Positions 3,029 to 16,700 of a stretch of DNA of 64,000 nt are shown here, piece after piece; position 1 is the first letter of the stretch, and each line of letters starts with the position of its first letter. Under the pieces are notes generated by a model that saw only the letters and a list, made by a program, of their open reading frames with translations, made no database searches and was not told the origin of the DNA. The position numbers and the translations under genes were made by a program. The stretch comes from Escherichia coli (GTDB lineage: Bacteria; Pseudomonadota; Gammaproteobacteria; Enterobacterales; Enterobacteriaceae), in assembly GCF_017348835.2 (NCBI RefSeq), contig NZ_CP071375.1; one strand, written 5' to 3'.

Positions 3029-4243
3029 ATGAAAAATCCCTATTACCCTACCGCACTTGGGTTGTATTTTAATTACCTGGTGCATGGTATGGGCGTCATT
3101 TTGATGAGCCTGAATATGGCCTCGCTGGAGACACTTTGGCAGACTAATGCCGCGGGTGTCTCGATAGTTATCTCATCGCTGGGCATTGGTCGATTAAGTG
3201 TCTTGCTTTTTGCAGGATTATTATCCGATCGCTTTGGTCGCCGCCCTTTTATCATGCTCGGGATGTGCTGCTATATGGCCTTCTTTTTTGGCATCCTGCA
3301 GACCAATAACATCATTATCGCTTATGTTTTTGGCTTTCTGGCGGGAATGGCAAACAGTTTTCTCGATGCAGGCACTTATCCCAGTTTGATGGAAGCTTTT
3401 CCACGCTCACCGGGGACAGCCAATATTTTAATTAAAGCATTTGTTTCCAGCGGACAATTTTTATTACCGCTAATCATTAGCCTGTTAGTGTGGGCTGAAC
3501 TGTGGTTCGGTTGGTCCTTTATGATTGCTGCAGGCATTATGTTTATTAACGCTCTGTTTTTATACCGTTGTACGTTCCCACCCCATCCGGGTCGTCGCTT
3601 ACCTGTCATAAAGAAAACCACCAGCTCTACGGAACATCGCTGTTCAATTATCGATTTAGCCAGTTATACCTTATATGGCTATATCTCAATGGCAACGTTT
3701 TATCTGGTTAGCCAGTGGCTGGCACAGTACGGACAATTTGTTGCAGGCATGTCATACACTATGTCGATCAAACTACTCAGTATCTACACCGTGGGTTCGC
3801 TGCTTTGTGTATTTATTACCGCTCCACTCATTCGTAATACCGTTCGCCCAACAACATTACTGATGCTGTACACCTTTATCTCATTTATTGCTCTGTTTAC
3901 CGTCTGCCTGCATCCCACATTTTATGTGGTGATAATATTTGCTTTTGTCATTGGTTTTACCTCTGCTGGAGGTGTTGTGCAAATTGGCCTGACGTTAATG
4001 GCTGAACGTTTCCCTTACGCTAAAGGTAAAGCTACAGGGATCTATTACAGTGCGGGCAGTATTGCGACCTTTACTATTCCGTTGATTACGGCTCATCTGT
4101 CCCAAAGAAGTATTGCCGATATTATGTGGTTCGATACCGCCATCGCCGCCGTCGGTTTTTTACTGGCACTATTTATTGGCTTACGCAGCCGTAAAGAAGC
4201 ACAACACCCATCATTAAGGGAAAATGTCGCTACTGGTGCGTAA
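3029..4243 (+). CDS. ydiM: MFS transporter
   Basis: 404-aa ORF with 12-TMS character and the MFS motif GRLSDRFGRR. Confidence 0.85.
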   Translation: MKNPYYPTALGLYFNYLVHGMGVILMSLNMASLETLWQTNAAGVSIVISSLGIGRLSVLLFAGLLSDRFGRRPFIMLGMCCYMAFFFGILQTNNIIIAYVFGFLAGMANSFLDAGTYPSLMEAFPRSPGTANILIKAFVSSGQFLLPLIISLLVWAELWFGWSFMIAAGIMFINALFLYRCTFPPHPGRRLPVIKKTTSSTEHRCSIIDLASYTLYGYISMATFYLVSQWLAQYGQFVAGMSYTMSIKLLSIYTVGSLLCVFITAPLIRNTVRPTTLLMLYTFISFIALFTVCLHPTFYVVIIFAFVIGFTSAGGVVQIGLTLMAERFPYAKGKATGIYYSAGSIATFTIPLITAHLSQRSIADIMWFDTAIAAVGFLLALFIGLRSRKEAQHPSLRENVATGA

Positions 4244-4463
4244 TGCAATATTCTTTTCAGCTCATGCAAGATCTTACGGATAAATTGTTCTTTCTGCACT
4301 AATTAAGGAAAATCGCGATCAAAAACAAACTATCACATGCAATATTCCTGGAAATATAAACTTTATATCATGTACCCATAGAAAATCATCTTCAGTATAG
4401 TGATTATGAAAACCGGCGGAGAACAATACGTACGGTAACGAAATTACCTTTCAGCAAGGAGCT

Positions 4464-5723
4464 GTGAAAATGTCTCAAAATAAGGCTTTCAGCACGCCAT
4501 TTATCCTGGCTGTTCTTTGTATTTACCTCAGTTATTTTCTACACGGCATTAGTGTTATTACGCTTGCCCAAAATATGTCATCTCTGGCGGAAAAGTTTTC
4601 CACTGACAACGCGGGCATTGCCTACTTAATTTCCGGTATCGGTTTGGGGCGATTGATCAGTATTTTATTCTTCGGTGTGATCTCCGATAAGTTTGGTCGT
4701 CGGGCGGTGATATTAATGGCAGTAATAATGTATCTGCTATTCTTCTTTGGTATTCCCGCTTGCCCGAATTTAACTCTCGCCTACGGTCTGGCAGTGTGCG
4801 TAGGTATCGCTAACTCAGCGCTGGATACGGGTGGCTACCCCGCGCTCATGGAATGCTTTCCGAAAGCCTCTGGTTCGGCGGTCATACTGGTTAAAGCGAT
4901 GGCGTCATTCGGGCAAATGTTCTACCCAATGCTGGTGAGCTATATGTTGCTCAATAATATCTGGTACGGCTATGGGCTGATTATTCCGGGTATTCTGTTT
5001 GTACTGATCACGCTGATGCTGTTGAAAAGCAAATTCCCCAGCCAGTTGGTGGACGCCAGCGTAGCTAATGAATTACCGCAAATGAACAGCAAACCGTTAG
5101 TCTGGCTGGAAGGTGTTTCATCGGTACTGTTCGGTGTAGCCGCATTCTCGACCTTTTATGTGATTGTGGTGTGGATGCCCAAATATGCGATGGCTTTTGC
5201 TGGTATGTCAGAAGCTGAGGCATTAAAAACCATCTCTTATTACAGTATGGGCTCGTTGGTCTGTGTCTTTATTTTTGCCGCACTACTGAAAAAAATGGTC
5301 CGGCCCATCTGGGCTAATGTATTTAACTCTGCACTGGCAACAATAACAGCAGCCATTATCTACCTGTACCCTTCTCCACTGGTGTGTAATGCCGGCGCCT
5401 TTGTTATCGGTTTCTCAGCAGCTGGCGGCATTTTACAGCTCGGTGTTTCGGTCATGTCAGAGTTTTTCCCCAAAAGCAAAGCCAAAGTCACCAGTATTTA
5501 TATGATGATGGGTGGACTGGCTAACTTTGTTATTCCGCTGATTACCGGTTATCTGTCGAACATCGGCCTGCAATATATCATCGTTCTCGATTTTACATTC
5601 GCGCTTGTGGCCCTGATTACCGCAATTATTGTTTTCATCCGCTATTACCGCGTCTTCATTATTCCTGAGAATGATGTGCGGTTTGGCGAACGCAATTTTA
5701 ACACCCCAGTTAAGCACAATTAA
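4464..5723 (+). CDS. ydiN: MFS transporter, paralog of ydiM
   Basis: 419-aa ORF sharing motifs with YdiM (SDKFGRR, DTGGYPALMECFP, IGFSAAGG). Confidence 0.85.
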   Translation: MKMSQNKAFSTPFILAVLCIYLSYFLHGISVITLAQNMSSLAEKFSTDNAGIAYLISGIGLGRLISILFFGVISDKFGRRAVILMAVIMYLLFFFGIPACPNLTLAYGLAVCVGIANSALDTGGYPALMECFPKASGSAVILVKAMASFGQMFYPMLVSYMLLNNIWYGYGLIIPGILFVLITLMLLKSKFPSQLVDASVANELPQMNSKPLVWLEGVSSVLFGVAAFSTFYVIVVWMPKYAMAFAGMSEAEALKTISYYSMGSLVCVFIFAALLKKMVRPIWANVFNSALATITAAIIYLYPSPLVCNAGAFVIGFSAAGGILQLGVSVMSEFFPKSKAKVTSIYMMMGGLANFVIPLITGYLSNIGLQYIIVLDFTFALVALITAIIVFIRYYRVFIIPENDVRFGERNFNTPVKHN

Positions 5724-5747
5724 GCATAGAGGTTAAAGGAGTTAATT

Positions 5748-6614
5748 ATGGATGTTACAGCTAAATATGAATTGATTGGGCTGATGGCCTATCCTATCCG
5801 CCACAGTTTATCGCCTGAAATGCAGAATAAAGCCTTAGAAAAAGCGGGATTGCCATTTACCTATATGGCCTTTGAAGTGGATAACGATAGCTTTCCCGGA
5901 GCAATTGAAGGATTAAAAGCTTTAAAAATGCGCGGAACCGGTGTTTCGATGCCCAACAAACAACTGGCGTGTGAATATGTCGATGAATTAACGCCAGCAG
6001 CCAAACTGGTTGGCGCTATCAATACCATCGTTAATGATGACGGTTACCTGCGCGGCTATAACACCGACGGCACGGGCCATATTCGCGCCATTAAAGAGAG
6101 CGGTTTTGATATCAAAGGCAAAACGATGGTGCTGTTAGGGGCCGGAGGTGCCTCAACGGCGATTGGCGCGCAGGGGGCAATTGAAGGTTTAAAAGAAATT
6201 AAACTCTTTAACCGTCGGGATGAGTTCTTCGATAAAGCCCTCGCCTTCGCGCAGCGGGTTAACGAAAACACCGATTGTGTCGTCACGGTTACCGATCTCG
6301 CCGATCAGCAAGCCTTTGCTGAAGCCCTGGCTTCCGCCGACATTTTAACCAATGGCACAAAAGTGGGTATGAAACCCCTTGAGAATGAATCATTAGTTAA
6401 TGATATCAGTCTGTTACATCCGGGACTGCTGGTCACTGAATGCGTGTATAACCCGCATATGACGAAGTTATTGCGGCAGGCGCAACAAGCTGGTTGCAAA
6501 ACGATTGATGGATACGGCATGTTGTTGTGGCAAGGGGCTGAACAGTTCACGTTATGGACTGGCAAAGATTTCCCTCTGGAATATGTTAAACAGGTCATGG
6601 GGTTCGGTGCCTGA
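5748..6614 (+). CDS. ydiB: Quinate/shikimate 5-dehydrogenase, NAD(P)-dependent
   Basis: 288-aa ORF of the AroE-like family; RBS GGAG upstream. Confidence 0.9.
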
Positions 6615-6644
6615 CAGGCTGACCGCGTGCAGAAAGGGTAAAAA

Positions 6645-7403
6645 ATGAAAACCGTAACTGTAAAAGATCTCGTCATTGGTACGGGCGCACCTAAAATCAT
6701 CGTCTCGCTGATGGCGAAAGATATCGCCCGCGTGAAATCCGAAGCTCTCGCCTATCGTGAAGCGGACTTTGATATTCTGGAATGGCGTGTGGACCACTTT
6801 GCCGACCTCTCCAATGTGGAGTCTGTCATGGCGGCGGCAAAAATTCTCCGTGAAACCATGCCAGAAAAACCGCTGCTGTTTACCTTCCGCAGTGCCAAAG
6901 AAGGCGGCGAGCAGGCGATTTCCACCGAGGCTTATATTGCACTCAATCGTGCAGCCATCGACAGCGGCCTGGTTGATATGATCGATCTGGAGTTATTTAC
7001 CGGCGATGATCAGGTTAAAGAAACCGTCGCCTACGCCCACGCGCATGATGTGAAAGTTGTCATGTCCAACCATGACTTCCATAAAACGCCGGAAGCCGAA
7101 GAAATCATTGCCCGTCTGCGCAAAATGCAATCCTTCGACGCCGATATTCCTAAGATTGCGCTGATGCCGCAAAGTACCAGCGATGTGCTGACGTTGCTTG
7201 CCGCGACCCTGGAGATGCAGGAGCAGTATGCCGATCGTCCAATCATCACGATGTCGATGGCAAAAACTGGCGTAATTTCTCGTCTGGCTGGTGAAGTATT
7301 TGGCTCGGCGGCAACTTTTGGTGCGGTAAAAAAAGCCTCTGCGCCAGGGCAAATCTCGGTAAATGATTTGCGCACAGTATTAACTATTTTACATCAGGCA
7401 TAA
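6645..7403 (+). CDS. aroD: 3-dehydroquinate dehydratase, type I
   Basis: 252-aa ORF; sequence and position match AroD. Confidence 0.95.
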
Positions 7404-7548
7404 GCAATAATATTTCGGCGGGAATATCCTCCCCCGCCGAACTAAAAAAAATATATTCAACCGTATTTAATAAAAATATTTCGTGAGTCTCTGTGCGCTA
7501 ATTATCCATCTGGCGTAGGGAAAATCACACCTGAATCAGGAATTAACA

Positions 7549-9144
7549 ATGAAACCTGTAAAACCACCTCGTATTAATGGACGAGTGCCGGTCCTGTCGG
7601 CACAGGAAGCGGTGAATTATATTCCCGACGAAGCAACACTTTGTGTTTTAGGCGCTGGCGGCGGTATTCTGGAAGCCACCACGTTAATTACTGCTCTTGC
7701 TGATAAATATAAACAGACTCAAACGCCACGTAATTTATCGATTATTAGTCCAACAGGGCTTGGCGATCGCGCCGACCGTGGTATTAGTCCGCTGGCGCAA
7801 GAAGGTCTGGTGAAATGGGCATTATGTGGTCACTGGGGACAATCGCCGCGTATTTCTGAACTCGCAGAACAAAATAAAATTATTGCTTATAACTACCCAC
7901 AAGGTGTACTTACACAAACCTTACGCGCCGCCGCAGCCCACCAGCCTGGTATTATTAGTGATATTGGCATCGGGACATTTGTCGATCCACGCCAGCAAGG
8001 CGGCAAACTGAATGAAGTCACTAAAGAAGACCTGATTAAACTGGTCGAGTTTGATAACAAAGAATATCTCTATTACAAAGCGATTGCTCCAGATATCGCC
8101 TTCATTCGCGCTACCACCTGCGACAGCGAAGGCTACGCCACTTTTGAAGATGAGGTGATGTATCTCGACGCATTGGTTATTGCCCAGGCGGTGCACAATA
8201 ACGGCGGTATTGTGATGATGCAGGTGCAGAAAATGGTTAAGAAAGCCACGCTGCATCCTAAATCTGTCCGTATTCCGGGTTATCTGGTGGATATTGTGGT
8301 GGTCGATCCGGATCAAAGCCAACTGTATGGCGGTGCGCCGGTTAACCGCTTTATTTCTGGTGACTTCACCCTTGATGACAGCACAAAACTTAGCCTGCTC
8401 CTAAACCAACGTAAATTAGTTGCACGGCGTGCATTATTCGAAATGCGTAAAAGCGCGGTGGGGAATGTCGGCGTCGGTATTGCTGACGGCATTGGCCTGG
8501 TCGCCCGGGAAGAAGGTTGTGCTGATGACTTTATTCTGACGGTAGAAACAGGTCCGATTGGCGGAATTACTTCACAGGGTATCGCCTTTGGCGCGAACGT
8601 GAATACCCGTGCCATTCTGGATATGACGTCCCAGTTTGATTTTTATCACGGTGGCGGTCTGGATGTTTGTTATTTGAGTTTTGCTGAAGTCGACCAGCAC
8701 GGTAACGTCGGCGTGCATAAATTCAATGGCAAAATCATGGGTACCGGTGGATTTATTGATATCAGTGCCACCTCGAAGAAAATTATTTTCTGCGGCACGT
8801 TAACTGCGGGCAGTTTAAAAACAGAAATTGCCGATGGCAAATTGAATATCGTCCAGGAAGGACGGGTAAATAAATTTATTCGGGAACTACCGGAAATTAC
8901 TTTTAGCGGAAAAATCGCTCTCGAGCGAGGGCTGGATGTTCGTTATATCACTGAGCGCGCCGTATTCACGCTGAAAGAAGACGGCCTGCATTTAATCGAA
9001 ATCGCCCCTGGCGTCGATTTACAAAAAGATATTCTCGACAAAATGGATTTCACCCCAGTGATTTCGCCAGAACTCAAACTGATGGACGAAAGATTATTTA
9101 TCGATGCGGCGATGGGTTTTGTCCTGCCTGAAGCGGCTCATTAA
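7549..9144 (+). CDS. ydiF: Acetate/acyl CoA-transferase (fused alpha/beta subunits)
   Basis: 531-aa ORF of CoA-transferase family I. Confidence 0.9.
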   Translation: MKPVKPPRINGRVPVLSAQEAVNYIPDEATLCVLGAGGGILEATTLITALADKYKQTQTPRNLSIISPTGLGDRADRGISPLAQEGLVKWALCGHWGQSPRISELAEQNKIIAYNYPQGVLTQTLRAAAAHQPGIISDIGIGTFVDPRQQGGKLNEVTKEDLIKLVEFDNKEYLYYKAIAPDIAFIRATTCDSEGYATFEDEVMYLDALVIAQAVHNNGGIVMMQVQKMVKKATLHPKSVRIPGYLVDIVVVDPDQSQLYGGAPVNRFISGDFTLDDSTKLSLLLNQRKLVARRALFEMRKSAVGNVGVGIADGIGLVAREEGCADDFILTVETGPIGGITSQGIAFGANVNTRAILDMTSQFDFYHGGGLDVCYLSFAEVDQHGNVGVHKFNGKIMGTGGFIDISATSKKIIFCGTLTAGSLKTEIADGKLNIVQEGRVNKFIRELPEITFSGKIALERGLDVRYITERAVFTLKEDGLHLIEIAPGVDLQKDILDKMDFTPVISPELKLMDERLFIDAAMGFVLPEAAH

Positions 9145-9157
9145 CAGGAGTATCACG

Positions 9158-10309
9158 ATGGATTTTTCTTTAACTGAAGAACAAGAACTGCTGCTGGCCA
9201 GTATTCGCGAACTGATTACGACTAACTTTCCGGAAGAGTATTTCCGCACCTGCGATCAAAACGGGACATACCCGCGTGAATTTATGCGGGCACTGGCGGA
9301 TAACGGTATTTCCATGCTTGGCGTGCCGGAAGAATTTGGTGGTATCCCTGCGGATTACGTCACCCAGATGCTGGCGCTGATGGAAGTGTCAAAATGCGGT
9401 GCTCCGGCATTTTTGATTACCAACGGTCAATGTATTCACAGTATGCGCCGTTTCGGTTCTGCAGAGCAGCTACGTAAAACGGCAGAAAGCACCCTGGAAA
9501 CGGGTGATCCCGCCTATGCCCTGGCGTTGACGGAGCCAGGCGCAGGCTCAGACAACAACAGTGCCACCACCACTTACACGCGTAAAAACGGCAAGGTTTA
9601 CATCAACGGACAGAAAACCTTTATTACCGGTGCGAAAGAGTACCCATATATGCTGGTGCTGGCGCGCGATCCTGAACCGAATGATCCGAAAAAGGCCTTC
9701 ACACTGTGGTGGGTCGACTCCAGTAAGCCCGGCATTAAGATTAACCCGCTGCATAAAATCGGCTGGCATATGCTCAGCACCTGCGAAGTCTATCTCGACA
9801 ACGTAGAAGTTGAAGAGAGCGACATGGTGGGCGAAGAAGGAATGGGTTTCCTCAATGTGATGTACAACTTTGAGATGGAGCGCCTGATCAACGCCGCGCG
9901 CAGCACCGGCTTTGCCGAATGCGCCTTTGAAGATGCCGCCCGCTATGCCAACCAACGTATCGCTTTTGGTAAACCCATTGGTCATAACCAGATGATCCAG
10001 GAAAAACTGGCGCTGATGGCGATTAAGATCGACAACATGCGCAACATGGTGCTGAAAGTGGCATGGCAAGCCGATCAGCATCAGTCACTGCGCACCAGCG
10101 CGGCGCTGGCAAAACTGTATTGCGCACGTACCGCAATGGAAGCCATTGATGATGCGATTCAAATCATGGGCGGTCTGGGCTATACCGATGAAGCGCGCGT
10201 CTCCCGCTTCTGGCGTGATGTCCGTTGTGAACGTATCGGCGGCGGTACAGACGAAATTATGATTTACGTAGCAGGTCGGCAGATCCTGAAAGACTATCAG
10301 AACAAATAA
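9158..10309 (+). CDS. ydiO: Acyl-CoA dehydrogenase (CaiA-like)
   Basis: ORF track 9104..10309; annotated start taken at MDFSLTEEQELL (383 aa); acyl-CoA dehydrogenase family. Confidence 0.9.
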   Translation: MDFSLTEEQELLLASIRELITTNFPEEYFRTCDQNGTYPREFMRALADNGISMLGVPEEFGGIPADYVTQMLALMEVSKCGAPAFLITNGQCIHSMRRFGSAEQLRKTAESTLETGDPAYALALTEPGAGSDNNSATTTYTRKNGKVYINGQKTFITGAKEYPYMLVLARDPEPNDPKKAFTLWWVDSSKPGIKINPLHKIGWHMLSTCEVYLDNVEVEESDMVGEEGMGFLNVMYNFEMERLINAARSTGFAECAFEDAARYANQRIAFGKPIGHNQMIQEKLALMAIKIDNMRNMVLKVAWQADQHQSLRTSAALAKLYCARTAMEAIDDAIQIMGGLGYTDEARVSRFWRDVRCERIGGGTDEIMIYVAGRQILKDYQNK

Positions 10310-10315
10310 TCTGCA

Positions 10316-10347
10316 GGCGGCGCAGCTTCTTAACAAACTGCGCCGCC
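10316..10347. terminator. Hairpin between convergent ydiO and ydiP
   Basis: GGCGGCGCAG / CTGCGCCGCC 10-bp stem with 12-nt loop. Confidence 0.45.
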
Positions 10348-10351
10348 AGAT

Positions 10352-11263
10352 TTATCCAACAAGACTTACCGGTTGAGGAAATTCAGATAGGATTTCTTGT
10401 TCCGCAAAACAGTTTTTAAATTGCCTGCGGTAATCGCTGGGCGAACAGCCGACATGGCGCAAAAACAGTTTGCCAAAGTGATCGACATTTTCATAACCCA
10501 CACGCCAGGAGATCTCTGCCTGTGATAATTCAGTATTAGTGAGTAACCATTTCGCTTCCGTCATACGCCGTTGAATAACATAGTTAATTGGGGAAATACG
10601 ATACTCTTTGGTAAATTCATGGCAAATATAACTGACGCTGGCACGAAATTTTTTCGATAACTGTTCTAAAGTGATTTTTTCGCGATAATTATTATTCAGA
10701 TAGAAAAGAATATCTTTTATCAGAACATCTTTTTTAATATACCCCTGCTCCGAACGATAAGCATTTTTAAAGTTTTCGTAGTAAAGAATTGCTAATGTAT
10801 AGGCAAATGCATCCCATAACGAAGATGTTTGGCTATTTTTACTTTGCGGCAAAATCACACTTAGCTCATTAAATAAGGTTTTAATGACTTCTTTTCCCTG
10901 CCCCGCGGCAATTACCGGACAAGAATGCGGTTGCAGTAGATGATTTTCCTCAGCCCCCTGAAACTGAAAGCCGTACAGCGCACAGGTACACGTCGTTGCC
11001 GGATCGTTAACGTCAGAGGCCACCGCATGCAGCCTGCCGCGTTCTATCACCACTATATCATCTGCATGCGCGACATATAACGAAGAATCGATGGTAAACC
11101 TTGCCACCCCTTTCTTGACGTAAATCAGCTCGGTTTCATTGTCATGAACGTGATGTCCAGACTCCCATTTTGGATCATCGCTAAATGCAAAACGTGAAAG
11201 CCGTGGCGTTTTACCGGCGACAAACAGCGTTTCACTGGCATTATCAAAACAGCGTTGATACAT
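10352..11263 (-). CDS. ydiP: AraC/XylS-family transcriptional regulator
   Basis: 303-aa ORF with C-terminal AraC HTH and N-terminal cupin-like domain. Confidence 0.85.
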   Translation of the reverse strand: MYQRCFDNASETLFVAGKTPRLSRFAFSDDPKWESGHHVHDNETELIYVKKGVARFTIDSSLYVAHADDIVVIERGRLHAVASDVNDPATTCTCALYGFQFQGAEENHLLQPHSCPVIAAGQGKEVIKTLFNELSVILPQSKNSQTSSLWDAFAYTLAILYYENFKNAYRSEQGYIKKDVLIKDILFYLNNNYREKITLEQLSKKFRASVSYICHEFTKEYRISPINYVIQRRMTEAKWLLTNTELSQAEISWRVGYENVDHFGKLFLRHVGCSPSDYRRQFKNCFAEQEILSEFPQPVSLVG

Positions 11264-11578
11264 GACAACCTCCCTATTCCATGAGCAAGCAAAAACAATA
11301 TATGCCGGATAAAATACGGCGTGTATTGCGGTTATACAACCGCGTTTAGCGAGAGCTAAACAAGATTATTTACACTGAATGCAAGATTGTACGGTCATGG
11401 AATAACTATATTGCCGCAAATTGCACTTTTGTTTTAGCGATCGCATTTTTTTTGCAAGATTGTTGGCAAGGAAAACAGCTTGCTCCGTCGAAAACCCCGC
11501 ACCGCTATCGCACACTATTTTCAGGCCATTTTTACCTTCCATCGGAGATGGTTCCGTATGCGACTCACAGGAGAAATC

Positions 11579-12343
11579 ATGAAAATAATAACCTGCTTTA
11601 AGCTGGTGCCTGAAGAACAGGACATTGTTGTCACTCCAGAATACACCCTGAATTTCGACAATGCCGACGCCAAAATCAGCCAGTTCGATCTCAATGCCAT
11701 TGAAGCTGCAAGCCAGCTTGCAACAGATGACGATGAGATAGCCGCGCTGACCGTTGGCGGCTCATTGTTGCAGAACTCGAAAGTGCGCAAAGACGTGCTA
11801 TCCCGCGGGCCGCACAGCCTGTATTTGGTGCAGGATGCGCAACTTGAACATGCACTGCCTCTCGATACCGCAAAAGCGCTGGCGGCAGCAGTTGAAAGGA
11901 TCGGCTTCGATTTACTGATCTTTGGTGAAGGTTCCGGCGACCTTTATGCCCAGCAGGTTGGCTTGCTGGTCGGAGAAATTCTGCAACTTCCGGTGATGAA
12001 TGCAGTGAGTGCTATTCAGCGTCAGGGCAATACACTGGTGATTGAACGCACGCTTGAAGATGACGTTGAAGTTATTGAACTCTCTGTTCCAGCCGTGCTC
12101 TGCGTCACCTCCGATATTAACGTGCCACGCATTCCTTCGATGAAAGCCATTCTCGGCGCGGGTAAAAAACCGGTAAATCAGTGGCAGGCAAGTGATATTG
12201 GCTGGAGCCAGAGCGCACCACTTGCTGAACTGACCGGCATTCGCGTACCGCCGCAAACAGAACGTAAGCACATCATTCTCGATAACGATTCGCCGGAGGC
12301 CATTGCCGAGCTGGCGGAACATCTGAAGAAAGCCCTGAACTGA
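11579..12343 (+). CDS. ydiQ: Electron-transfer flavoprotein beta-subunit homolog (FixA-like)
   Basis: ORF track 11480..12343; start taken at MKIITCFKLVPEEQD (254 aa). Confidence 0.85.
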   Translation: MKIITCFKLVPEEQDIVVTPEYTLNFDNADAKISQFDLNAIEAASQLATDDDEIAALTVGGSLLQNSKVRKDVLSRGPHSLYLVQDAQLEHALPLDTAKALAAAVERIGFDLLIFGEGSGDLYAQQVGLLVGEILQLPVMNAVSAIQRQGNTLVIERTLEDDVEVIELSVPAVLCVTSDINVPRIPSMKAILGAGKKPVNQWQASDIGWSQSAPLAELTGIRVPPQTERKHIILDNDSPEAIAELAEHLKKALN

Positions 12344-12362
12344 AGCCTACGGAGAAGAAACG

Positions 12363-13301
12363 ATGAGTCAATTAAACAGCGTCTGGGTCTTTAGCGATAA
12401 TCCTGAACGTTATGCTGAACTGTTTGGCGGCGCTCAGCAATGGGGCCAACAGGTGTATGCCATTGTACAAAATACCGACCAGGCGCAGGCAGTTATGCCT
12501 TATGGTCCAAAATGTATTTATGTTCTTGAGCAAAACGACGCGCTGCAACGCACTGAAAATTACGCCGAAAGCATTGCTGCTCTGCTGAAAGATAAACACC
12601 CCGCTATGTTGCTACTGGCCGCGACGAAACGTGGTAAAGCTCTGGCAGCACGGTTAAGTGTGCAACTGAATGCGGCGCTGGTGAACGATGCCACGGCGGT
12701 GGATATTGTCGATGGTCACATTTGCGCCGAACACCGGATGTATGGCGGGTTAGCGTTCGCTCAGGAAAAGATCAACAGCTCGCTGGCGATCATTACCCTT
12801 GCACCCGGTGTTCAGGAACCGTGCACCAGTGATACCTCTCATCAGTGCCCGACAGAAACGGTACCTTACGTTGCTCCGCGTCATGAAATTCTCTGTCGCG
12901 AGCGCCGTGCGAAAGCGGCAAGCAGCGTGGACCTGAGCAAAGCAAAACGTGTGGTTGGCGTCGGTCGTGGTCTGGCATCGCAGGATGACCTGAAAATGGT
13001 CCACGAACTGGCGGCGGTTCTGAATGCTGAAGTCGGCTGTTCACGTCCAATTGCCGAAGGCGAGAACTGGATGGAGCGTGAACGTTATATCGGTGTCTCC
13101 GGCGTGTTGCTGAAATCCGATCTCTACCTGACGCTGGGGATCTCCGGGCAGATCCAGCATATGGTTGGCGGCAACGGCGCAAAAGTGATTGTCGCCATCA
13201 ATAAAGATAAAAATGCGCCAATCTTCAATTATGCCGACTACGGTCTGGTGGGCGATATCTACAAAGTCGTCCCTGCCCTGATTAGCCAGTTGAGCCGCTA
13301 A
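12363..13301 (+). CDS. ydiR: Electron-transfer flavoprotein alpha-subunit homolog (FixB-like)
   Basis: 312-aa ORF of the EtfA family. Confidence 0.9.
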   Translation: MSQLNSVWVFSDNPERYAELFGGAQQWGQQVYAIVQNTDQAQAVMPYGPKCIYVLEQNDALQRTENYAESIAALLKDKHPAMLLLAATKRGKALAARLSVQLNAALVNDATAVDIVDGHICAEHRMYGGLAFAQEKINSSLAIITLAPGVQEPCTSDTSHQCPTETVPYVAPRHEILCRERRAKAASSVDLSKAKRVVGVGRGLASQDDLKMVHELAAVLNAEVGCSRPIAEGENWMERERYIGVSGVLLKSDLYLTLGISGQIQHMVGGNGAKVIVAINKDKNAPIFNYADYGLVGDIYKVVPALISQLSR

Positions 13302-13356
13302 TTCCCCTTTCAACCACATCTCCCGCTGTAAACGCAGCGGGAAGGGAGCATAACGC

Positions 13357-14646
13357 ATGTCGGATGACAAATTTGATGCCATTGTGGTCGGTGCGGGCGT
13401 TGCTGGTAGCGTTGCCGCACTGGTCATGGCGCGAGCCGGGCTGGATGTCCTGGTGATAGAACGCGGCGACAGTGCCGGATGTAAAAACATGACCGGCGGG
13501 CGTCTTTATGCCCACACACTTGAAGCGATTATTCCAGGCTTTGCAGCATCAGCGCCGGTAGAACGCAAGGTCACACGCGAGAAAATCTCCTTCTTAACCG
13601 AAGAGAGCGCCGTTACCCTCGATTTTCACCGCGAGCAACCAGATGTTCCACAACACGCATCTTATACCGTATTGCGTAATCGTCTGGACCCGTGGTTGAT
13701 TGAACAAGCCGAGCAGGCGGGCACGCAGTTTATCCCGGGAGTTCGCGTCGATGCGCTGGTTCGTGAAGGAAACAAGGTCACTGGCGTCCAGGCTGGGGAT
13801 GATATTCTCGAAGCGAATGTGGTGATTCTGGCTGATGGCGTTAACTCGATGCTTGGCCGTTCGCTGGGAATGGTTCCCGCTTCCGATCCGCATCATTACG
13901 CTGTTGGTGTTAAAGAGGTTATTGGCCTGACACCAGAACAGATCAACGATCGCTTTAATATTACGGGCGAGGAAGGTGCCGCCTGGCTGTTTGCCGGTTC
14001 CCCTTCTGACGGCCTGATGGGTGGCGGATTCCTCTATACCAATAAGGATTCCATATCGTTGGGGCTGGTTTGTGGATTGGGTGATATCGCCCATGCGCAA
14101 AAAAGCGTGCCGCAAATGCTGGAAGATTTTAAACAACACCCCGCCATTCGCCCGCTGATTAGCGGCGGTAAACTGCTTGAATATTCCGCGCATATGGTGC
14201 CGGAAGGCGGTCTGGCAATGGTGCCGCAGCTGGTTAACGAGGGCGTGATGATCGTTGGTGACGCCGCAGGCTTCTGCCTGAATTTGGGTTTTACGGTCCG
14301 CGGCATGGATTTAGCCATTGCATCGGCTCAGGCTGCCGCCACAACGGTGATCGCCGCCAAAGAACGCGCGGATTTCTCCGCCAGCAGTCTTGCGCAATAC
14401 AAACGTGAGCTGGAACAAAGTTGTGTTATGCGCGATATGCAGCATTTTCGCAAGATCCCGGCGCTGATGGAAAACCCGCGCCTGTTTAGTCAGTATCCGC
14501 GCATGGTCGCCGACATCATGAACGAGATGTTCACCATTGACGGCAAACCAAACCAGCCGGTACGAAAAATGATCATGGGACATGCGAAGAAAATTGGGCT
14601 GATCAACTTGCTGAAAGATGGCATTAAGGGAGCAACCGCGCTATGA
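13357..14646 (+). CDS. ydiS: FAD-dependent ETF-quinone oxidoreductase homolog (FixC-like)
   Basis: 429-aa ORF with N-terminal FAD fold motif VVGAGVAGS. Confidence 0.9.
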   Translation: MSDDKFDAIVVGAGVAGSVAALVMARAGLDVLVIERGDSAGCKNMTGGRLYAHTLEAIIPGFAASAPVERKVTREKISFLTEESAVTLDFHREQPDVPQHASYTVLRNRLDPWLIEQAEQAGTQFIPGVRVDALVREGNKVTGVQAGDDILEANVVILADGVNSMLGRSLGMVPASDPHHYAVGVKEVIGLTPEQINDRFNITGEEGAAWLFAGSPSDGLMGGGFLYTNKDSISLGLVCGLGDIAHAQKSVPQMLEDFKQHPAIRPLISGGKLLEYSAHMVPEGGLAMVPQLVNEGVMIVGDAAGFCLNLGFTVRGMDLAIASAQAAATTVIAAKERADFSASSLAQYKRELEQSCVMRDMQHFRKIPALMENPRLFSQYPRMVADIMNEMFTIDGKPNQPVRKMIMGHAKKIGLINLLKDGIKGATAL

Positions 14647-14936
14647 GCCAGAACGCTACGGTTAACGTCGACATCAAATTAGGCGTCAATAAATTCCATG
14701 TTGATGAGGGCCACCCGCATATCATTTTGGCGGCAAATCCCGATATCAATGAATTCCGTAAATTAATGAAAGCCTGCCCTGCCGGACTTTATAAGCAGGA
14801 TGACGCCGGCAACATTCATTTTGATTCTGCCGGTTGTCTGGAGTGCGGCACCTGTCGGGTGCTGTGCGGTAACACTATTCTCGAACAGTGGCAATATCCC
14901 GCAGGCACCTTCGGTATTGATTTTCGCTACGGCTAA
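14643..14936 (+). CDS. ydiT: Ferredoxin-like protein (FixX-like)
   Basis: 97-aa ORF with Cys cluster CLECGTCRVLC; 4-bp overlap with the ydiS stop. Confidence 0.9.
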   Translation: MSQNATVNVDIKLGVNKFHVDEGHPHIILAANPDINEFRKLMKACPAGLYKQDDAGNIHFDSAGCLECGTCRVLCGNTILEQWQYPAGTFGIDFRYG

Positions 14937-14989
14937 TCATGCATCCCACAGGCCCGCATCTCGGGCCTGATGTTCTGTTTCGAGAGTCC

Positions 14990-16638
14990 AAAATGAAAGT
15001 GACATTAACGTTTAACGAACAACGTCGTGCGGCGTATCGTCAGCAAGGGCTATGGGGCGATGCTTCGCTGGCCGATTACTGGCAGCAGACCGCTCGTGCG
15101 ATGCCAGACAAAATTGCCGTGGTCGATAATCATGGAGCATCGTACACCTATAGCGCGCTCGATCACGCCGCGAGCTGTCTGGCAAACTGGATGTTAGCGA
15201 AGGGTATTGAATCAGGCGATCGCATCGCATTTCAACTGCCAGGCTGGTGTGAATTTACCGTTATCTATCTTGCCTGCCTGAAAATCGGTGCGGTTTCCGT
15301 ACCGCTGTTGCCTTCCTGGCGGGAAGCAGAACTGGTATGGGTGCTCAATAAGTGTCAGGCAAAATGTTCTTTGCACCGACGTTGTTTAAACAAACGCGTC
15401 CGGTAGATTTAATCCTGCCGCTGCAAAATCAGCTTCCACAACTTCAACAAATTGTCGGCGTGGACAAACTGGCTCCCGCCACCTCTTCCCTCTCATTAAG
15501 TCAGATTATCGCCGACAATACCCCACTGACCACGGCGATAACGACCCACGGCGATGAATTAGATGCGGTGCTGTTTACCTCCGGAACCGAGGGTCTGCCA
15601 AAGGGCGTGATGCTTACGCATAACAATATTCTCGCCAGTGAGCGGGCTTATTGCGCGCGGCTGAATCTGACCTGGCAGGATGTCTTTATGATGCCTGCGC
15701 CACTCGGCCACGCAACGGGCTTTCTGCATGGCGTAACGGCACCATTTTTGATTGGTGCTCGCAGCGTGTTGTTAGATATTTTCACTCCTGATGCGTGTCT
15801 CGCGCTGCTTGAGCAGCAGCGTTGCACCTGTATGCTCGGCGCAACGCCGTTTGTCTATGATCTTTTGAATTTAGTAGAGAAACAACCCGCAGACCTTTCA
15901 GCGCTGCGCTTCTTTCTTTGCGGCGGTACCACAATCCCCAAAAAAGTGGCGCGTGAATGCCAGCAGCGCGGCATTAAATTATTAAGTGTTTATGGTTCCA
16001 CAGAAAGTTCGCCGCATGCGGTGGTGAATCTCGATGATCCTTTGTCGCGCTTTATGCACACCGATGGTTACGCTGCCGCAGGTGTAGAGATTAAAGTGGT
16101 CGATGACGCACGCAAGACCTTACCGCCAGGTTGCGAAGGTGAAGAAGCCTCGCGTGGCCCCAATGTGTTTATGGGGTATTTTGATGAACCTGAATTAACC
16201 GCCCGTGCCCTGGATGAAGAAGGCTGGTATTACAGCGGCGATCTCTGCCGCATGGATGAGGCTGGCTATATAAAAATTACCGGACGCAAAAAAGATATTA
16301 TTGTCCGCGGCGGCGAAAATATTAGCAGCCGTGAAGTGGAAGATATTTTATTGCAGCATCCTAAAATTCACGATGCCTGTGTGGTTGCAATGCCCGATGA
16401 ACGTTTAGGTGAACGATCATGCGCTTATGTCGTGCTGAAAGCGCCGCATCATTCATTATCGCTGGAAGAGGTGGTGGCTTTTTTTAGCCGTAAACGGGTC
16501 GCAAAATATAAATATCCTGAACATATCGTGGTAATCGAAAAACTACCGCGCACTGCCTCAGGTAAAATACAAAAGTTTTTGTTAAGGAAAGATATTATGC
16601 GGCGATTAACTCAGGATGTCTGTGAAGAGATTGAATAA
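14990..16638 (+). pseudogene. fadK: Short-chain acyl-CoA synthetase fadK, disrupted by a -1 frameshift
   Basis: N-terminal frame (track 14939..15406) and C-terminal frame (track 15352..16638) are both FadK sequence but in different frames; they join at ..NKCQAK / MFFAPTLFKQ across the run GGCAAAATGTTC at 15359-15370. Confidence 0.7.
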
Positions 16639-16663
16639 GTTTCATCTTCGGGGATCACATAAA

Positions 16664-16700
16664 CCCGGCGACAAAACGCCGCCGGGTATTTATTTTATTT
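16664..16700 (+). terminator. Putative fadK terminator in the fadK/ppsA convergent gap
   Basis: Hairpin CCCGGCG-acaaaa-CGCCGGG followed by TATTTATTTTATTT. Confidence 0.5.

What the first reader, a model, noticed from the sequence alone, without database searches (positions are those of the whole stretch)
7549..16638. ydiF-ydiO / ydiP / ydiQRST-fadK: an ETF-linked acyl-CoA module of unknown substrate
The cluster combines a CoA-transferase, an acyl-CoA dehydrogenase, a divergent AraC-type regulator, EtfB/EtfA homologs, an ETF-quinone oxidoreductase homolog, a ferredoxin and an acyl-CoA synthetase. This architecture parallels caiTABCDE-fixABCX and suggests an anaerobic electron-bifurcating or reverse beta-oxidation-type pathway whose physiological substrate remains unassigned. 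The fadK frameshift makes the activating enzyme non-functional here, so the module may be decaying.
Basis: partly seen in the sequence, partly recalled or inferred. Interest (0 to 1): 0.45.

Follow-up and report, generated by a model that had tools for sequence, protein, structure and literature searches.

The report
E. coli ydi acyl-CoA/ETF locus
This is the well-known but still poorly understood E. coli ydiF-ydiO / ydiP / ydiQRST-fadK gene cluster; comparison with other bacteria suggests it works with the neighbouring quinate/shikimate genes rather than only on fatty acids, which can be tested directly.

Summary
Window 7549-16638 is the core E. coli locus ydiF, ydiO, ydiP (minus strand), ydiQ, ydiR, ydiS, ydiT and fadK. 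The window matches strain PE164 except for 7 substitutions, and every domain call holds.

fadK carries a 1-base deletion (A5 to A4, 15361-15364). Among 5031 E. coli genomes this allele is seen only in PE164. All other genes are intact and show dN/dS of 0.03-0.13, so "decaying module" is not supported.

The parallel with cai/fix is real paralogy (45-63% identity for YdiO/Q/R/S/T). "Electron-bifurcating" is not supported. YdiQ has DLYAQQ where bifurcating ETFs have DGDTAQ, and YdiR has Ala in place of the conserved Arg of TVRPG.

New here: in every species where YdiO occurs with a YdiF-type CoA-transferase, a type I dehydroquinase sits beside or inside the operon, as does a YdiN-like transporter and usually a YdiB quinate/shikimate dehydrogenase. 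This holds in three rearranged low-GC variants.

In E. coli the same three-repeat operator (TGCAA[G/T]AT at 0, +21, +94) precedes both ydiN and ydiQ and occurs nowhere else in 64 kb.

I propose a YdiP-controlled, quinone-linked CoA-thioester redox module acting on a shikimate-type cyclohexene-carboxylate. Fatty-acid or butyrate oxidation is the main rival.

The locus is already known; the hypothesis is new and testable.

The parts
3029..4243 (+). ydiM, an MFS transporter and the first gene of the conserved block
   Evidence: RefSeq annotation. Orthologs at 68-79% identity head the same block in Citrobacter, Brenneria, Dickeya and Serratia.
4244..4347 (+). Three direct repeats TGCAA(T/G)AT at 4244, 4265 and 4338 (offsets 0, +21, +94) upstream of ydiN; candidate operator
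   Evidence: The geometry is identical to the ydiQ promoter and conserved in K-12 and O145. A 21-bp-spaced pair lies upstream of ydiN in Brenneria, Serratia and an Enterobacterales MAG.
4470..5736 (+). ydiN, an MFS transporter, with a +1 C in a C run near 5701-5704, about 11 codons before the stop
   Evidence: Annotated 'frameshifted'; indel located; the allele is shared with pig strain F2_81. A YdiN-like MFS sits directly upstream of the YdiF homolog in all rearranged variants.
5748..6614 (+). ydiB, quinate/shikimate dehydrogenase
   Evidence: Annotation. Orthologs at 76-98% identity accompany every YdiF-type module except L099/L100, and lie inside the operon in L015 and L097.
6645..7403 (+). 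aroD, type I 3-dehydroquinate dehydratase
   Evidence: Annotation. A DHquinase_I gene (65-96% identity) is present in all YdiF-type loci whose flanks are covered. In L015, L097 and L099 it lies directly after etfA or ydiB inside the operon, ahead of fixC where FixCX is present.
7414..7441 (.). Stable hairpin after aroD, followed on the + strand by an A run rather than a T run
   Evidence: -16.6 kcal/mol, z = -4.1. It is not a canonical + strand terminator, so read-through from aroD into ydiF is possible (inference).
7549..9144 (+). ydiF, family I CoA-transferase
   Evidence: About 99% identical to PDB 2AHU/2AHV/2AHW; Glu333 present.
9158..10309 (+). ydiO, an acyl-CoA dehydrogenase/enoyl-CoA reductase of the CaiA clade
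   Evidence: NCBIfam NF008997 at 783 bits; 48% identical to CaiA. The clade has Glu241 (E-R motif) and GGG in place of the usual YEG catalytic Glu.
10352..11263 (-). ydiP, AraC-family regulator with a cupin ligand-binding domain plus HTH
   Evidence: Orthologs at 44-82% identity sit next to the module in the standard-order loci and in L015.
11359..11462 (+). Three direct repeats (A/T)(A/G)CAAGATT at 11359, 11380 and 11453 (offsets 0, +21, +94) upstream of ydiQ; candidate YdiP operator
   Evidence: The third repeat lies in a roughly 50-bp block conserved from E. coli to Dickeya.
11579..12343 (+). ydiQ, ETF beta subunit (FixA-like)
   Evidence: The nucleotide 'zipper' reads DLYAQQ, unlike both bifurcating and canonical ETFs.
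12363..13301 (+). ydiR, ETF alpha subunit (FixB-like)
   Evidence: Ala replaces the Arg of T-V-R-P-G; the electron-transfer FAD motif S-R (GCSRP) is kept.
13357..14646 (+). ydiS, FixC-type ETF-quinone oxidoreductase
   Evidence: Best solved relative is Thermotoga FixC 7KOE_C at 238 bits, against mitochondrial-type ETF-QO 2GMH at 89 bits.
14643..14936 (+). ydiT, FixX-like ferredoxin; its start overlaps the ydiS stop by 4 nt
   Evidence: Cys at 45, 65, 68, 71, 75.
14949..14969 (+). GC-rich hairpin between ydiT and the 14993 start of fadK, inside the 18-codon extension that K-12 annotates
   Evidence: -17.7 kcal/mol, z = -2.1.
14993..16638 (+). fadK, medium-chain acyl-CoA ligase, a pseudogene in this sequence; the alternative K-12-style start is at 14939
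15361..15364 (+). A4 run, the site of the 1-nt deletion (A5 in other genomes)

Best explanation
The region is the known E. coli ydiF-ydiO / ydiP / ydiQRST-fadK locus. I read it as a CoA-thioester redox module built like the carnitine system Cai/Fix.

Inferred mechanism, by homology:
- An acid is activated to its CoA thioester. FadK primes this with ATP, and the family I CoA-transferase YdiF then recycles the CoA.
- YdiO, a CaiA-clade flavoenzyme, acts on the alpha,beta bond of that thioester.
- A single-FAD, non-bifurcating ETF (YdiQR) and a FixCX-type ETF-quinone oxidoreductase (YdiST) connect YdiO to the membrane quinone pool.
- The AraC-type regulator YdiP controls expression.

Shown here:
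- The module is not a free-standing fatty-acid unit. It is the downstream half of a conserved block ydiM-ydiN-ydiB-aroD-ydiF-ydiO-ydiP-ydiQRST-fadK.
- The ydiN and ydiQ promoters carry the same three-repeat operator.

Inferred from that:
- The native substrate is most likely a quinate/shikimate-derived cyclohexene-carboxylate. Shikimate is itself an alpha,beta-unsaturated acid, so shikimoyl-CoA is an enoyl-CoA.
- YdiO most likely reduces it with electrons from menaquinol, as CaiA reduces crotonobetainyl-CoA.
- Short and medium-chain fatty acids would then be side or secondary substrates.

In this strain fadK carries a private 1-nt deletion. That removes only the priming ligase, not the module.

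My sub-confidences: locus identity and architecture 0.95; non-bifurcating ETF 0.75; functional coupling with ydiN-ydiB-aroD 0.65; hydroaromatic CoA thioester as the YdiO substrate 0.45; reductive direction 0.5.
For: Identity and domains.

Paralogy to cai/fix. YdiO and CaiA also share an unusual active-site layout, E-R at the isovaleryl-CoA-dehydrogenase position and GGG instead of YEG.

Non-bifurcating ETF:
- PMC8958531 gives the EtfB zipper as D-G-D-T-A-Q in 216 bifurcating ETFs and D-D-D-S-N-Q in 449 canonical ones.
- It reports the EtfA Arg-165 as conserved in 447 of 449 canonical ETFs.
- YdiQ has D-L-Y-A-Q-Q, and YdiR has T-L-A-P-G where solved bifurcating ETFs have T-V-R-P-G.
- The whole YdiQR / E. 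coli FixAB clade shares both changes.
- PMC6085437 refers to a 'non-Bf group 5' of ETFs.

Coupling to ydiB-aroD-ydiN:
- About 16 loci carry YdiO at 76% identity or more together with a YdiF-type transferase. They come from Escherichia, Citrobacter, Brenneria, Dickeya, Serratia and MAGs.
- Every such locus with enough flank has a type I dehydroquinase, and all but one layout have YdiB.
- The block keeps its order although its flanks differ between families.
- Three rearranged low-GC layouts place ydiB and/or aroD between etfA and fixC, or directly after etfA.
- None of the 12 loci of the paralogous 'type B' module has them. That module has YdiO-like at 62-70%, a family III transferase, a second ACAD and a desulfoferrodoxin-like gene.

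Shared operator:
- CAA[GTA]AT-N14-16-CAA[GT]AT occurs only twice in 64 kb, at the ydiN and ydiQ promoters. Simulated mean is 0.21, and 1% of simulations reach 2 or more.
- Both sites have a third repeat at +94 and lie about the same distance from the start codon.
- The 21-bp pair recurs in other genera, and beside the YdiP ortholog in L015.

Expression: ydiQ, R, S and T change together by 20-32 fold in a shikimate-accumulating E. coli culture (PMC4015609).

Family-level hints: the second or third best NCBIfam hit for FadK is cyclohexanecarboxylate-CoA ligase, and YdiO hits cyclohexane-1-carbonyl-CoA dehydrogenase models.

Selection: dN/dS is 0.03-0.13.
Against: - No experiment links these genes to quinate or shikimate, and none was found in the held literature.
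- Published genetics point to fatty acids. A fadD fadK double mutant cannot use fatty acids, and FadK prefers C6-C8. Salmonella ydiQRSTD is reported as needed for anaerobic butyrate use.
- aroD is the housekeeping dehydroquinase of E. coli, so its position could partly reflect inherited gene order. All YdiF-type loci found are from Enterobacterales-like genomes, so the counts are not phylogenetically independent.
- No operator repeat lies upstream of ydiF, so how ydiF-ydiO is transcribed is unknown.
- YdiP binding to the repeats is not shown. A 2022 Nat Commun paper (PMC9283627; not readable here) assigns YdiP, as I recall, to cold-shock adaptation.
- The direction of electron flow is inferred from CaiA only.
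- The mapping of Arg-165 to the TVRPG motif rests on my reading of the alignments.
Confidence: 0.5

Rival explanations
1. Anaerobic beta-oxidation of short and medium-chain fatty acids (the literature view). FadK and YdiF make butyryl- to octanoyl-CoA. YdiO oxidises it to the enoyl-CoA. Electrons pass through YdiQR and YdiST to the quinone pool and on to nitrate or other acceptors. FadIJ, encoded elsewhere, finish the cycle.
For: Reviews report that FadK is most active on C6-C8 acids and that a fadD fadK double mutant cannot use fatty acids (PMC9329746). Nuccio and Baumler list ydiFO, ydiQRST and fadHIJK as the anaerobic beta-oxidation pathway. Salmonella ydiQRSTD is described as encoding anaerobic butyrate oxidation. 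The ETF plus ETF-QO architecture is the classical route from acyl-CoA dehydrogenases to quinone.
Against: The same review says evidence for YdiQR in fatty-acid growth is lacking. It adds that fadK induction in anaerobiosis was not reproduced and that there is no FadR or CRP control. The locus has no hydratase, 3-hydroxyacyl-CoA dehydrogenase or thiolase. This model does not explain the invariable presence of a dehydroquinase, and usually YdiB, inside or beside the operon, nor the operator shared with ydiN. The closest characterised homolog of YdiO is a reductase, CaiA.
Confidence: 0.3
2. One reading: an electron-bifurcating ETF complex (like Bcd-EtfAB, CarCDE or diazotroph FixABCX), or a native reverse beta-oxidation pathway, in which NADH reduces an enoyl-CoA and ferredoxin at the same time.
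For: The best solved-structure hits of YdiQ and YdiR are subunits of bifurcating complexes: CarD/CarE 6FAH, LctB/LctC 7QH2, 5OL2 and 7KOE. FixCX partners belong to a bifurcating complex in Azotobacter and Thermotoga. ydiO and ydiQRST were used in models of engineered beta-oxidation reversal.
Against: The motif that binds the bifurcating FAD is not conserved: DLYAQQ instead of DGDTAQ, including loss of the 100%-conserved Thr. The Arg that contacts the flavin and phosphate is Ala. The same changes occur in E. coli FixAB and all clade members. The literature refers to a non-bifurcating ETF group 5.
Confidence: 0.05
3. The module is a decaying, functionless remnant in this strain, with the fadK frameshift as the first visible step.
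For: fadK is frameshifted here and ydiN also carries a frameshift. A different gene of the module, ydiO, is frameshifted in 27 genomes of the O145:H28 lineage. Extraintestinal Salmonella serovars have lost parts of the locus.
Against: Seven of the eight genes are intact and score as full-length matches above the curated cut-offs wherever a dedicated model exists. dN/dS is 0.03-0.13, with repaired fadK at 0.077 and no nonsense or extra indels. The locus is present at 80% coverage or more in 5348 of 5426 E. coli genomes. The ydiN change affects only the last ~11 codons. Related operons work without any ligase gene, and the CoA-transferase can sustain the cycle once primed (inference from the Cai and Car systems).
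Confidence: 0.1
4. The fadK frameshift is not biological but a homopolymer miscall in the assembly.
For: It is a single-base length change in a homopolymer. It is unique to this assembly among 5031 genomes. No other sign of relaxed constraint is seen in fadK.
Against: The assembly is not error-ridden. In 100 kb sampled elsewhere, only one of about 90 CDS, an accessory immunity gene, is flagged as frameshifted. The other frameshift in the window, in ydiN, is shared with an independent genome. The deletion is present both in the window and in the current RefSeq version, although these two differ at 7 other positions.
Confidence: 0.3

Closest known systems
E. coli K-12 ydiF-ydiO / ydiP / ydiQRST-fadK (b1694-b1701)
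   Same: Same genes, order, spacing and promoter repeats. Synonymous divergence is 2-11%, and the intergenic operator repeats are identical.
   Different: fadK has a private 1-nt deletion. RefSeq PGAP starts fadK at 14993 (548 aa), whereas K-12 annotates the upstream ATG (566 aa) that abuts ydiT. There are a few conservative substitutions.
E. coli caiTABCDE-fixABCX (carnitine / crotonobetaine reduction)
   Same: Paralogous reductase (YdiO/CaiA 48%), ETF (55% and 45%), FixC (61%), FixX (63%) and ligase (29%). The logic is the same: a priming ligase, a recycling CoA-transferase, a step that creates the enoyl group, and a reductase fed through ETF/FixCX.
   Different: The CoA-transferase is family I (YdiF), not family III (CaiB). 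There is no crotonase-type CaiD; YdiB and AroD would generate the unsaturated acid before CoA activation (inference). The transporters are MFS, not the BCCT antiporter CaiT. The regulator is AraC-type, not CaiF.
Salmonella Typhimurium ydiQRSTD (butyrate utilisation, Bronner et al. 2018)
   Same: Orthologous operon; Salmonella YdiO is 95% identical, and the gene names and order are as cited.
   Different: The function there is assigned from infection and growth genetics. The primary paper was not available here, so I could not check whether ydiF, ydiO or ydiB were tested.
Acetobacterium woodii CarABCDE (caffeate respiration) and Clostridium propionicum Pct + acryloyl-CoA reductase
   Same: The parts list is the same: a CoA-transferase, a ligase in Car, an ACAD-type enoyl-CoA reductase and EtfBA, all acting on an alpha,beta-unsaturated acid. 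The best solved hit of YdiQ is CarD, and NCBIfam lists the AcrABC models among the hits.
   Different: CarDE is a two-FAD bifurcating ETF, and CarE carries an extra ferredoxin domain. YdiQR lacks the second-FAD residues and instead has FixCX-type quinone coupling. Sequence identity is low.
'Type B' paralogous modules (E. albertii island, Citrobacter youngae second copy, Phytobacter, Budvicia, Pectobacteriaceae CE70, Desulfovibrio desulfuricans)
   Same: YdiO-like reductase at 62-70% identity, with ETF, FixCX and ligase at 44-77% identity and the same ETF clade signatures.
   Different: These carry a family III CoA-transferase, a second canonical ACAD, a different MFS and a desulfoferrodoxin-like gene. 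They have no YdiB or AroD and no TGCAAGAT repeat pair. Presumably they act on another substrate.

Membership tests
E. coli core ydiF-fadK locus | Near-identical sequence and synteny with the annotated locus in reference genomes | tested here: met
   100.0% (rounded) identity to PE164, and 95-99% identity to 5393 records; 5348 of 5426 genomes cover 80% or more of the query. The gene table is identical to K-12.
Cai/Fix-type enoyl-CoA reductase system | CaiA-clade flavoenzyme (ACAD fold with the clade-specific catalytic layout) | tested here: met
   48% identity to CaiA and 450 bits on the CaiA model; shared E-R motif and GGG in place of YEG.
Cai/Fix-type enoyl-CoA reductase system | FixA/FixB-type ETF plus FixC/FixX encoded together | tested here: met
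   45-63% identity to K-12 FixABCX, and shared clade signatures in both ETF subunits.
Cai/Fix-type enoyl-CoA reductase system | Family III CoA-transferase (CaiB), crotonase-type hydratase (CaiD) and BCCT antiporter (CaiT) | tested here: not met
   No BLASTP match of any ydi protein to CaiB, CaiD or CaiT. YdiF is family I.
Cai/Fix-type enoyl-CoA reductase system | Physiological electron flow towards the enoyl-CoA (reduction) | not testable with these tools
   Inferred only, from homology to CaiA and from the literature statement that FixAB is required for carnitine reduction.
Bifurcating (two-FAD, group 2) ETF | EtfB nucleotide 'zipper' D-G-D-T-A-Q that binds the bifurcating FAD | tested here: not met
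   YdiQ has D-L-Y-A-Q-Q at 121-126; the Thr that is 100% conserved in 216 bifurcating ETFs is Ala.
Bifurcating (two-FAD, group 2) ETF | Conserved EtfA Arg contacting the flavin N5 and phosphates (T-V-R-P-G in solved complexes) | tested here: not met
   YdiR has T-L-A-P-G at 145-149, while 5OL2, 6FAH and 7KOE have TVRPG. The equivalence with Arg-165 of the R. palustris enzyme is my reading of the alignment.
Bifurcating (two-FAD, group 2) ETF | NADH oxidation and two FAD per heterodimer | not testable with these tools
   Needs purified protein.
Canonical (group 1) ETF of aerobic beta-oxidation | EtfB motif D-D-D-S-N-Q (AMP site) and the conserved EtfA Arg | tested here: not met
   YdiQ has DLYAQQ and YdiR has Ala. 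Only the electron-transfer FAD Arg (S-R motif, GCSRP at 225-229) is kept.
Anaerobic fatty-acid beta-oxidation pathway (Campbell/Cronan) | Acyl-CoA synthetase active on fatty acids | not tested
   From the literature only: FadK is reported as most active on C6-C8. In this sequence the gene is frameshifted.
Anaerobic fatty-acid beta-oxidation pathway (Campbell/Cronan) | Hydratase, 3-hydroxyacyl-CoA dehydrogenase and thiolase in the same unit, and fad-type regulation (FadR) | tested here: not met
   No such genes lie between 3029 and 16638. The review reports no evidence of FadR or CRP control of fadK.
Family I CoA-transferase | Single-chain alpha/beta fusion with a catalytic Glu forming the glutamyl-CoA thioester | tested here: met
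   1182 bits, about 99% identity, to the solved YdiF 2AHU/2AHV/2AHW. Glu333 lies in the motif T-V-E-T-G. Its role as the thioester site is from my memory of Rangarajan 2005.
AraC/XylS regulator with effector domain | N-terminal cupin/AraC_binding domain plus C-terminal double HTH | tested here: met
   Cupin_2 at 30-89, AraC_binding at 28-143 and HTH_18 at 202-281.

The most novel reading that the evidence does not exclude
The whole 13.6-kb block ydiM-ydiN-ydiB-aroD-ydiF-ydiO-ydiP-ydiQRST-fadK (3029-16638) is one YdiP-controlled regulon for anaerobic 'hydroaromatic respiration'. Quinate and shikimate are imported (YdiN/YdiM) and interconverted by YdiB and AroD to the alpha,beta-unsaturated acid. 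That acid is thioesterified by FadK and YdiF. The ring double bond of shikimoyl-CoA (or 3-dehydroshikimoyl-CoA) is then reduced by YdiO with menaquinol-derived electrons delivered by YdiST and YdiQR, releasing dihydroshikimate. This would be a plant-acid counterpart of carnitine respiration. It would give a function to about ten E. coli y-genes and a mechanism for the long-known reduction of dietary quinate and shikimate by gut microbes.
Probability: 0.3. Interest if true: 0.75.

Novelty: already known. Interest (0 to 1): 0.5.

Why it matters
The locus is present in almost every E. coli genome and is conserved in Salmonella, Citrobacter and several plant-associated Enterobacterales. Even so, reviews still list YdiQR and YdiO as of unknown or poorly supported function. 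It has been used in engineered reverse beta-oxidation and invoked in Salmonella gut colonisation.

If the module really belongs with ydiN-ydiB-aroD, three things follow:
- YdiB, a 'spare' shikimate dehydrogenase with no known role, would acquire one.
- The substrate search for YdiO and YdiF would move from fatty acids to plant hydroaromatic acids that are abundant in the gut.
- The enterobacterial FixAB/YdiQR clade would be recognised as single-FAD ETFs that may feed quinol electrons to reductases.

All of this can be tested with standard knock-outs, LC-MS and reporter fusions. The strain-specific fadK frameshift itself is of minor importance.

Tried and rejected
- FNR control. The site predicted by Grainger et al. 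for the ydiP/ydiQ ChIP peak lies inside the ydiP coding sequence (11110-11133). It has a mismatch in the conserved half-site here (ATCAA to ATCAG), and no consensus FNR box lies in the intergenic region. I did not use it.
- Sigma-54. The K-12 ChIP site is antisense inside fadK (15289-15305) and has two mismatches here. Consensus matches in the window are no more frequent than chance.
- Generic promoter and terminator scans gave no more hits than shuffles.
- Bifurcation. I tested this against published motif statistics and rejected it.
- Programmed frameshifting in fadK. I rejected this because 5030 of 5031 genomes have the in-frame A5 allele.
- Assembly riddled with indel errors. I rejected this after sampling 100 kb elsewhere.
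- The operator repeat upstream of ydiF or in other intergenic regions of the block. None was found.
- Primary papers. Bronner 2018 and Garcia Costas 2017 are not held.
- Taxonomy of the low-GC variant contigs (L015, L097, L099). Not resolved.
- Whether the dehydroquinase in other genera is a second, dedicated copy. This needs whole genomes, which I could not query.

Full report
**What is there**

The window matches the chromosome of E. coli PE164 (NZ_CP114128.1) except for seven substitutions. The finding's coordinates run exactly from the start of ydiF to the stop of fadK.

- ydiF is a family I CoA-transferase, about 99% identical to PDB 2AHU, with Glu333 present.
- ydiO is an acyl-CoA dehydrogenase-family protein.
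- ydiP, on the minus strand, is an AraC-type regulator with a cupin effector domain.
- ydiQ and ydiR are ETF beta and alpha subunits.
- ydiS is a FixC-type ETF-quinone oxidoreductase.
- ydiT is a FixX-like ferredoxin.
- fadK is an AMP-forming acyl-CoA ligase, split into two ORFs.

The locus is core E. coli: 5348 of 5426 complete genomes cover at least 80% of the 7000-17500 query.

**The frameshift**

Aligned to O145 RM9872 and K-12, fadK lacks one A of an A5 run, leaving A4 at 15361-15364. The reading frame then ends at 15406.

A 61-mer centred on the site is exact only in PE164 among 5031 genomes that carry this stretch. All the others align with the extra base. So the allele is private.

I cannot tell a real slip from a residual assembly error, but several points favour a real, recent mutation:
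- 100 kb sampled elsewhere in the assembly has a single frameshifted accessory gene among about 90 CDS.
- The other frameshift in the window, ydiN with +1 C about 11 codons before the stop, is shared with an independent pig isolate.
- Repaired fadK has dN/dS of 0.077 against K-12 and no further lesions.

The remaining genes have dN/dS of 0.03-0.13. The exception is ydiQ at 0.73, which rests on only ten conservative changes split between lineages.

"Decay of the module" is therefore not supported for this strain. Lineage-specific loss does occur elsewhere: 27 genomes of the O145:H28 group share a 1-nt deletion in ydiO, and reviews describe loss of the locus in extraintestinal Salmonella.

**Relation to cai/fix, and the bifurcation question**

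Identities are YdiO/CaiA 48%, YdiQ/FixA 55%, YdiR/FixB 45%, YdiS/FixC 61%, YdiT/FixX 63% and FadK/CaiC 29%. There is no counterpart of CaiB, CaiD or CaiT.

YdiO and CaiA also share an unusual catalytic layout. The usual Y-E-G glutamate is replaced by G-G-G, and a conserved E-R pair sits at the position used by isovaleryl-CoA dehydrogenase-type enzymes (the comparison with isovaleryl-CoA dehydrogenase is from my own knowledge).

For bifurcation I used published statistics (PMC8958531):
- The EtfB peptide that zips onto the second nucleotide reads D-G-D-T-A-Q in 216 bifurcating ETFs and D-D-D-S-N-Q in 449 canonical ones.
- An EtfA arginine is kept in 447 of 449 canonical ETFs and is needed to bind FAD or AMP.

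YdiQ reads D-L-Y-A-Q-Q. YdiR has T-L-A-P-G where the solved bifurcating complexes have T-V-R-P-G. The arginine next to the electron-transfer FAD is retained. E. coli FixAB and all relatives I collected share these changes, and the literature mentions a non-bifurcating "group 5" of ETFs.

I conclude that YdiQR is a single-FAD carrier and not a bifurcating ETF. This remains a sequence inference.

**What the literature says**

- A 2022 review states that YdiQR are of unknown function. It adds that experimental evidence for a role in fatty-acid growth is lacking, that FadK is most active on C6-C8, and that its anaerobic induction and regulation are in doubt.
- The y-ome paper uses ydiO as an example of a poorly annotated gene.
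- For Salmonella, several papers citing Bronner 2018 describe ydiQRSTD as an anaerobic butyrate-oxidation operon. The primary paper was not available.
- ydiQRST-fadK is treated as one transcription unit.
- ydiQ, R, S and T change together by 20-32 fold between growth phases of a shikimate-accumulating strain.

**Comparative genomics**

YdiO homologs closer to YdiO than CaiA is (55-99% identity) exist well beyond E. coli. I mapped neighbourhoods from seven contig look-ups and one scan of species-representative genomes. I used tblastn with all block proteins. Two module types emerge.

*Type A:*
- YdiO is at 76% identity or more, with a YdiF-type family I transferase.
- It occurs in Escherichia, Citrobacter, Brenneria, Dickeya, Serratia and MAGs.
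- The order ydiM-(lysR)-ydiN-ydiB-aroD-ydiF-ydiO-ydiP-ydiQRST-fadK is kept although the flanking genes differ. In E. coli and Citrobacter the downstream neighbour is ppsA. In Brenneria aroL lies upstream, and an amidohydrolase, a methionine aminotransferase and mtnB lie downstream.

*Three rearranged type A layouts*, on low-GC (42-44%) metagenomic contigs:
- L015: MFS-ydiF-ydiO-etfB-etfA-ydiB-aroD-fixC-fixX.
- L097: araC-MFS-MFS-ydiF-ydiO-etfB-etfA-ydiB-aroD-ApbA-MaoC.
- L099: MFS-ydiF-ydiO-etfB-etfA-aroD-fixC-fixX-ligase, with aroD abutting or overlapping etfA.

In these variants YdiF, YdiO, YdiB and AroD are 65-83% identical to the E. coli proteins, while the ETF and FixCX parts are only 44-56% identical.

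*Type B:*
- The YdiO-like protein is at 62-70% identity, with a family III transferase, a second canonical ACAD, another MFS, ETF, FixCX, a ligase and a desulfoferrodoxin-like gene.
- It never has YdiB or a type I dehydroquinase (0 of 12 loci).
- It can coexist with type A in one genome, Citrobacter youngae (L031 and L032).

The dehydroquinase and YdiB association is therefore specific to the YdiF/YdiO pair and survives operon rearrangement.

**A shared operator**

Aligning the ydiP-ydiQ spacer across genera reveals a roughly 50-bp conserved block containing TGCAAGATTGTTGG. Further points:
- The spacer holds three same-strand repeats at 11359, 11380 and 11453.
- The ydiM-ydiN spacer holds TGCAATATTC, TGCAAGATCT and TGCAATATTC at 4244, 4265 and 4338.
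- In both places the offsets are 0, +21 and +94, and the third repeat lies 126-132 bp before the start codon.
- The pattern CAA[GTA]AT-N14-16-CAA[GT]AT occurs only at these two places in 64 kb on both strands. The simulated mean is 0.21, and 1% of simulations reach two. None of 20,000 simulations with the spacers' own composition hit both spacers.
- The 21-bp pair recurs upstream of ydiN and/or ydiQ in Citrobacter, Brenneria, Dickeya, Serratia and two MAGs. It also recurs between the YdiP ortholog and the operon in L015.
- No such pair lies in the regulatory regions of five type B loci examined; the single match, in L008, falls inside a LysR-family coding sequence downstream of the module.

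That YdiP is the binding protein is an inference from co-occurrence. I found no repeat upstream of ydiF. The hairpin after aroD lacks a T tract on the + strand, so read-through is possible.

**Mechanism proposed**

Shown:
- the parts list
- paralogy to Cai/Fix
- loss of the second-FAD signatures
- conserved linkage with ydiN-ydiB-aroD
- the shared operator

Inferred: shikimate is a cyclohex-1-ene-1-carboxylate, so its CoA thioester is an enoyl-CoA.
- YdiB and AroD can convert quinate through 3-dehydroquinate and 3-dehydroshikimate to shikimate.
- FadK would prime the CoA thioester and YdiF would recycle the CoA.
- YdiO would reduce the ring double bond.
- YdiST and YdiQR would deliver electrons from menaquinol.
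- The saturated acid would then leave the cell.

This copies the logic of carnitine respiration, and some weak family-level hits fit it. FadK scores on the cyclohexanecarboxylate-CoA ligase model and YdiO on cyclohexanecarbonyl-CoA dehydrogenase models. From my own knowledge, lactobacilli and gut communities reduce quinate and shikimate to dihydroshikimate and cyclohexanecarboxylate. A paper on gut anaerobic respiration mentions shikimate repeatedly, but I could not read it.

The main rival is the published fatty-acid/butyrate oxidation model. It has genetic support but does not explain the linkage or the operator. I found no paper in the held library that connects ydiF, ydiO or ydiQRST with quinate or shikimate metabolism.

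**Verdict**

The feature is real, correctly delimited as far as it goes, and already known and annotated.

The added value lies in two results. The module is the downstream half of a larger co-regulated block, and its ETF is of a non-bifurcating enterobacterial type. Together these turn a long-standing "function unknown" into specific experiments.

I score interest at 0.5. The locus itself is ordinary, the frameshift is minor, and the substrate hypothesis is unproven but cheap to test.

Noticed in passing
window 4470-5736 (indel near 5701-5704): ydiN carries a +1 C in a C run about 11 codons before its stop. The 3' end of the gene is a divergent allele that megablast finds in only one other complete genome, pig strain F2_81.
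   Followed up: partly
window 12978, 15563, 25965, 45859, 47364, 51092, 56406: The window differs from the current RefSeq record of PE164 at seven single bases. In every case the window has A or T where the record has G or C. Two of them are non-synonymous changes inside the finding: ydiR Ala206Ser, and an Ala-to-Asp change in fadK. Possibly a different assembly version.
   Followed up: partly
L002 about 6019 (window equivalent 10018): The O145:H28 lineage carries a fixed 1-nt deletion in ydiO while its fadK is intact; 27 complete genomes share the exact 61-mer. This is independent, lineage-specific inactivation of another gene of the module.
   Followed up: yes
L010, L029, L028, L032, L030, L008, L006, L016, L017: A paralogous 'type B' module is found in E. 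albertii, Citrobacter youngae (as a second copy), Phytobacter, Budvicia, Pectobacteriaceae CE70 and Desulfovibrio. It comprises a family III CoA-transferase, an MFS, a second ACAD, a YdiO-like reductase, ETF, FixCX, a ligase and a desulfoferrodoxin-like gene. Its substrate is unknown.
   Followed up: partly
window 11110-11133: The FNR site predicted for the K-12 ydiP/ydiQ ChIP peak lies inside the ydiP coding sequence. In this strain it has a change in the conserved half-site (ATCAA to ATCAG).
   Followed up: partly
window 15289-15305 (minus strand): The antisense intragenic sigma-54 site mapped in K-12 fadK is present with two mismatches (GCGGTACGGAAACCGCA).
   Followed up: no
window 14939-14992: K-12 annotates fadK from an upstream ATG two bases after the ydiT stop (566 aa), while PGAP starts it 18 codons later (548 aa). 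The extension contains a stable GC-rich hairpin (14949-14969), and the NCBIfam model starts at the second ATG.
   Followed up: partly
window 45163-46376: An IS3-family transposase with a programmed frameshift lies next to ydjO, between ydjO and cedA.
   Followed up: no
window 35054-36952: The type III secretion effector gene espL1 sits between thrS and yniD.
   Followed up: no
L014 10001-11143: A 74%-identical YdiO homolog on a GC-57% metagenomic contig stands alone with no ETF or CoA-transferase nearby. Its neighbours are an aldo-keto reductase and a cytochrome c / 4Fe-4S / NrfD gene set.
   Followed up: no
L024 794-1357: In Brenneria roseae a shikimate kinase AroL gene lies immediately upstream of ydiM at the edge of the block. 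A LysR-type regulator is inserted between ydiM and ydiN, and the same LysR insertion is seen in Dickeya.
   Followed up: partly
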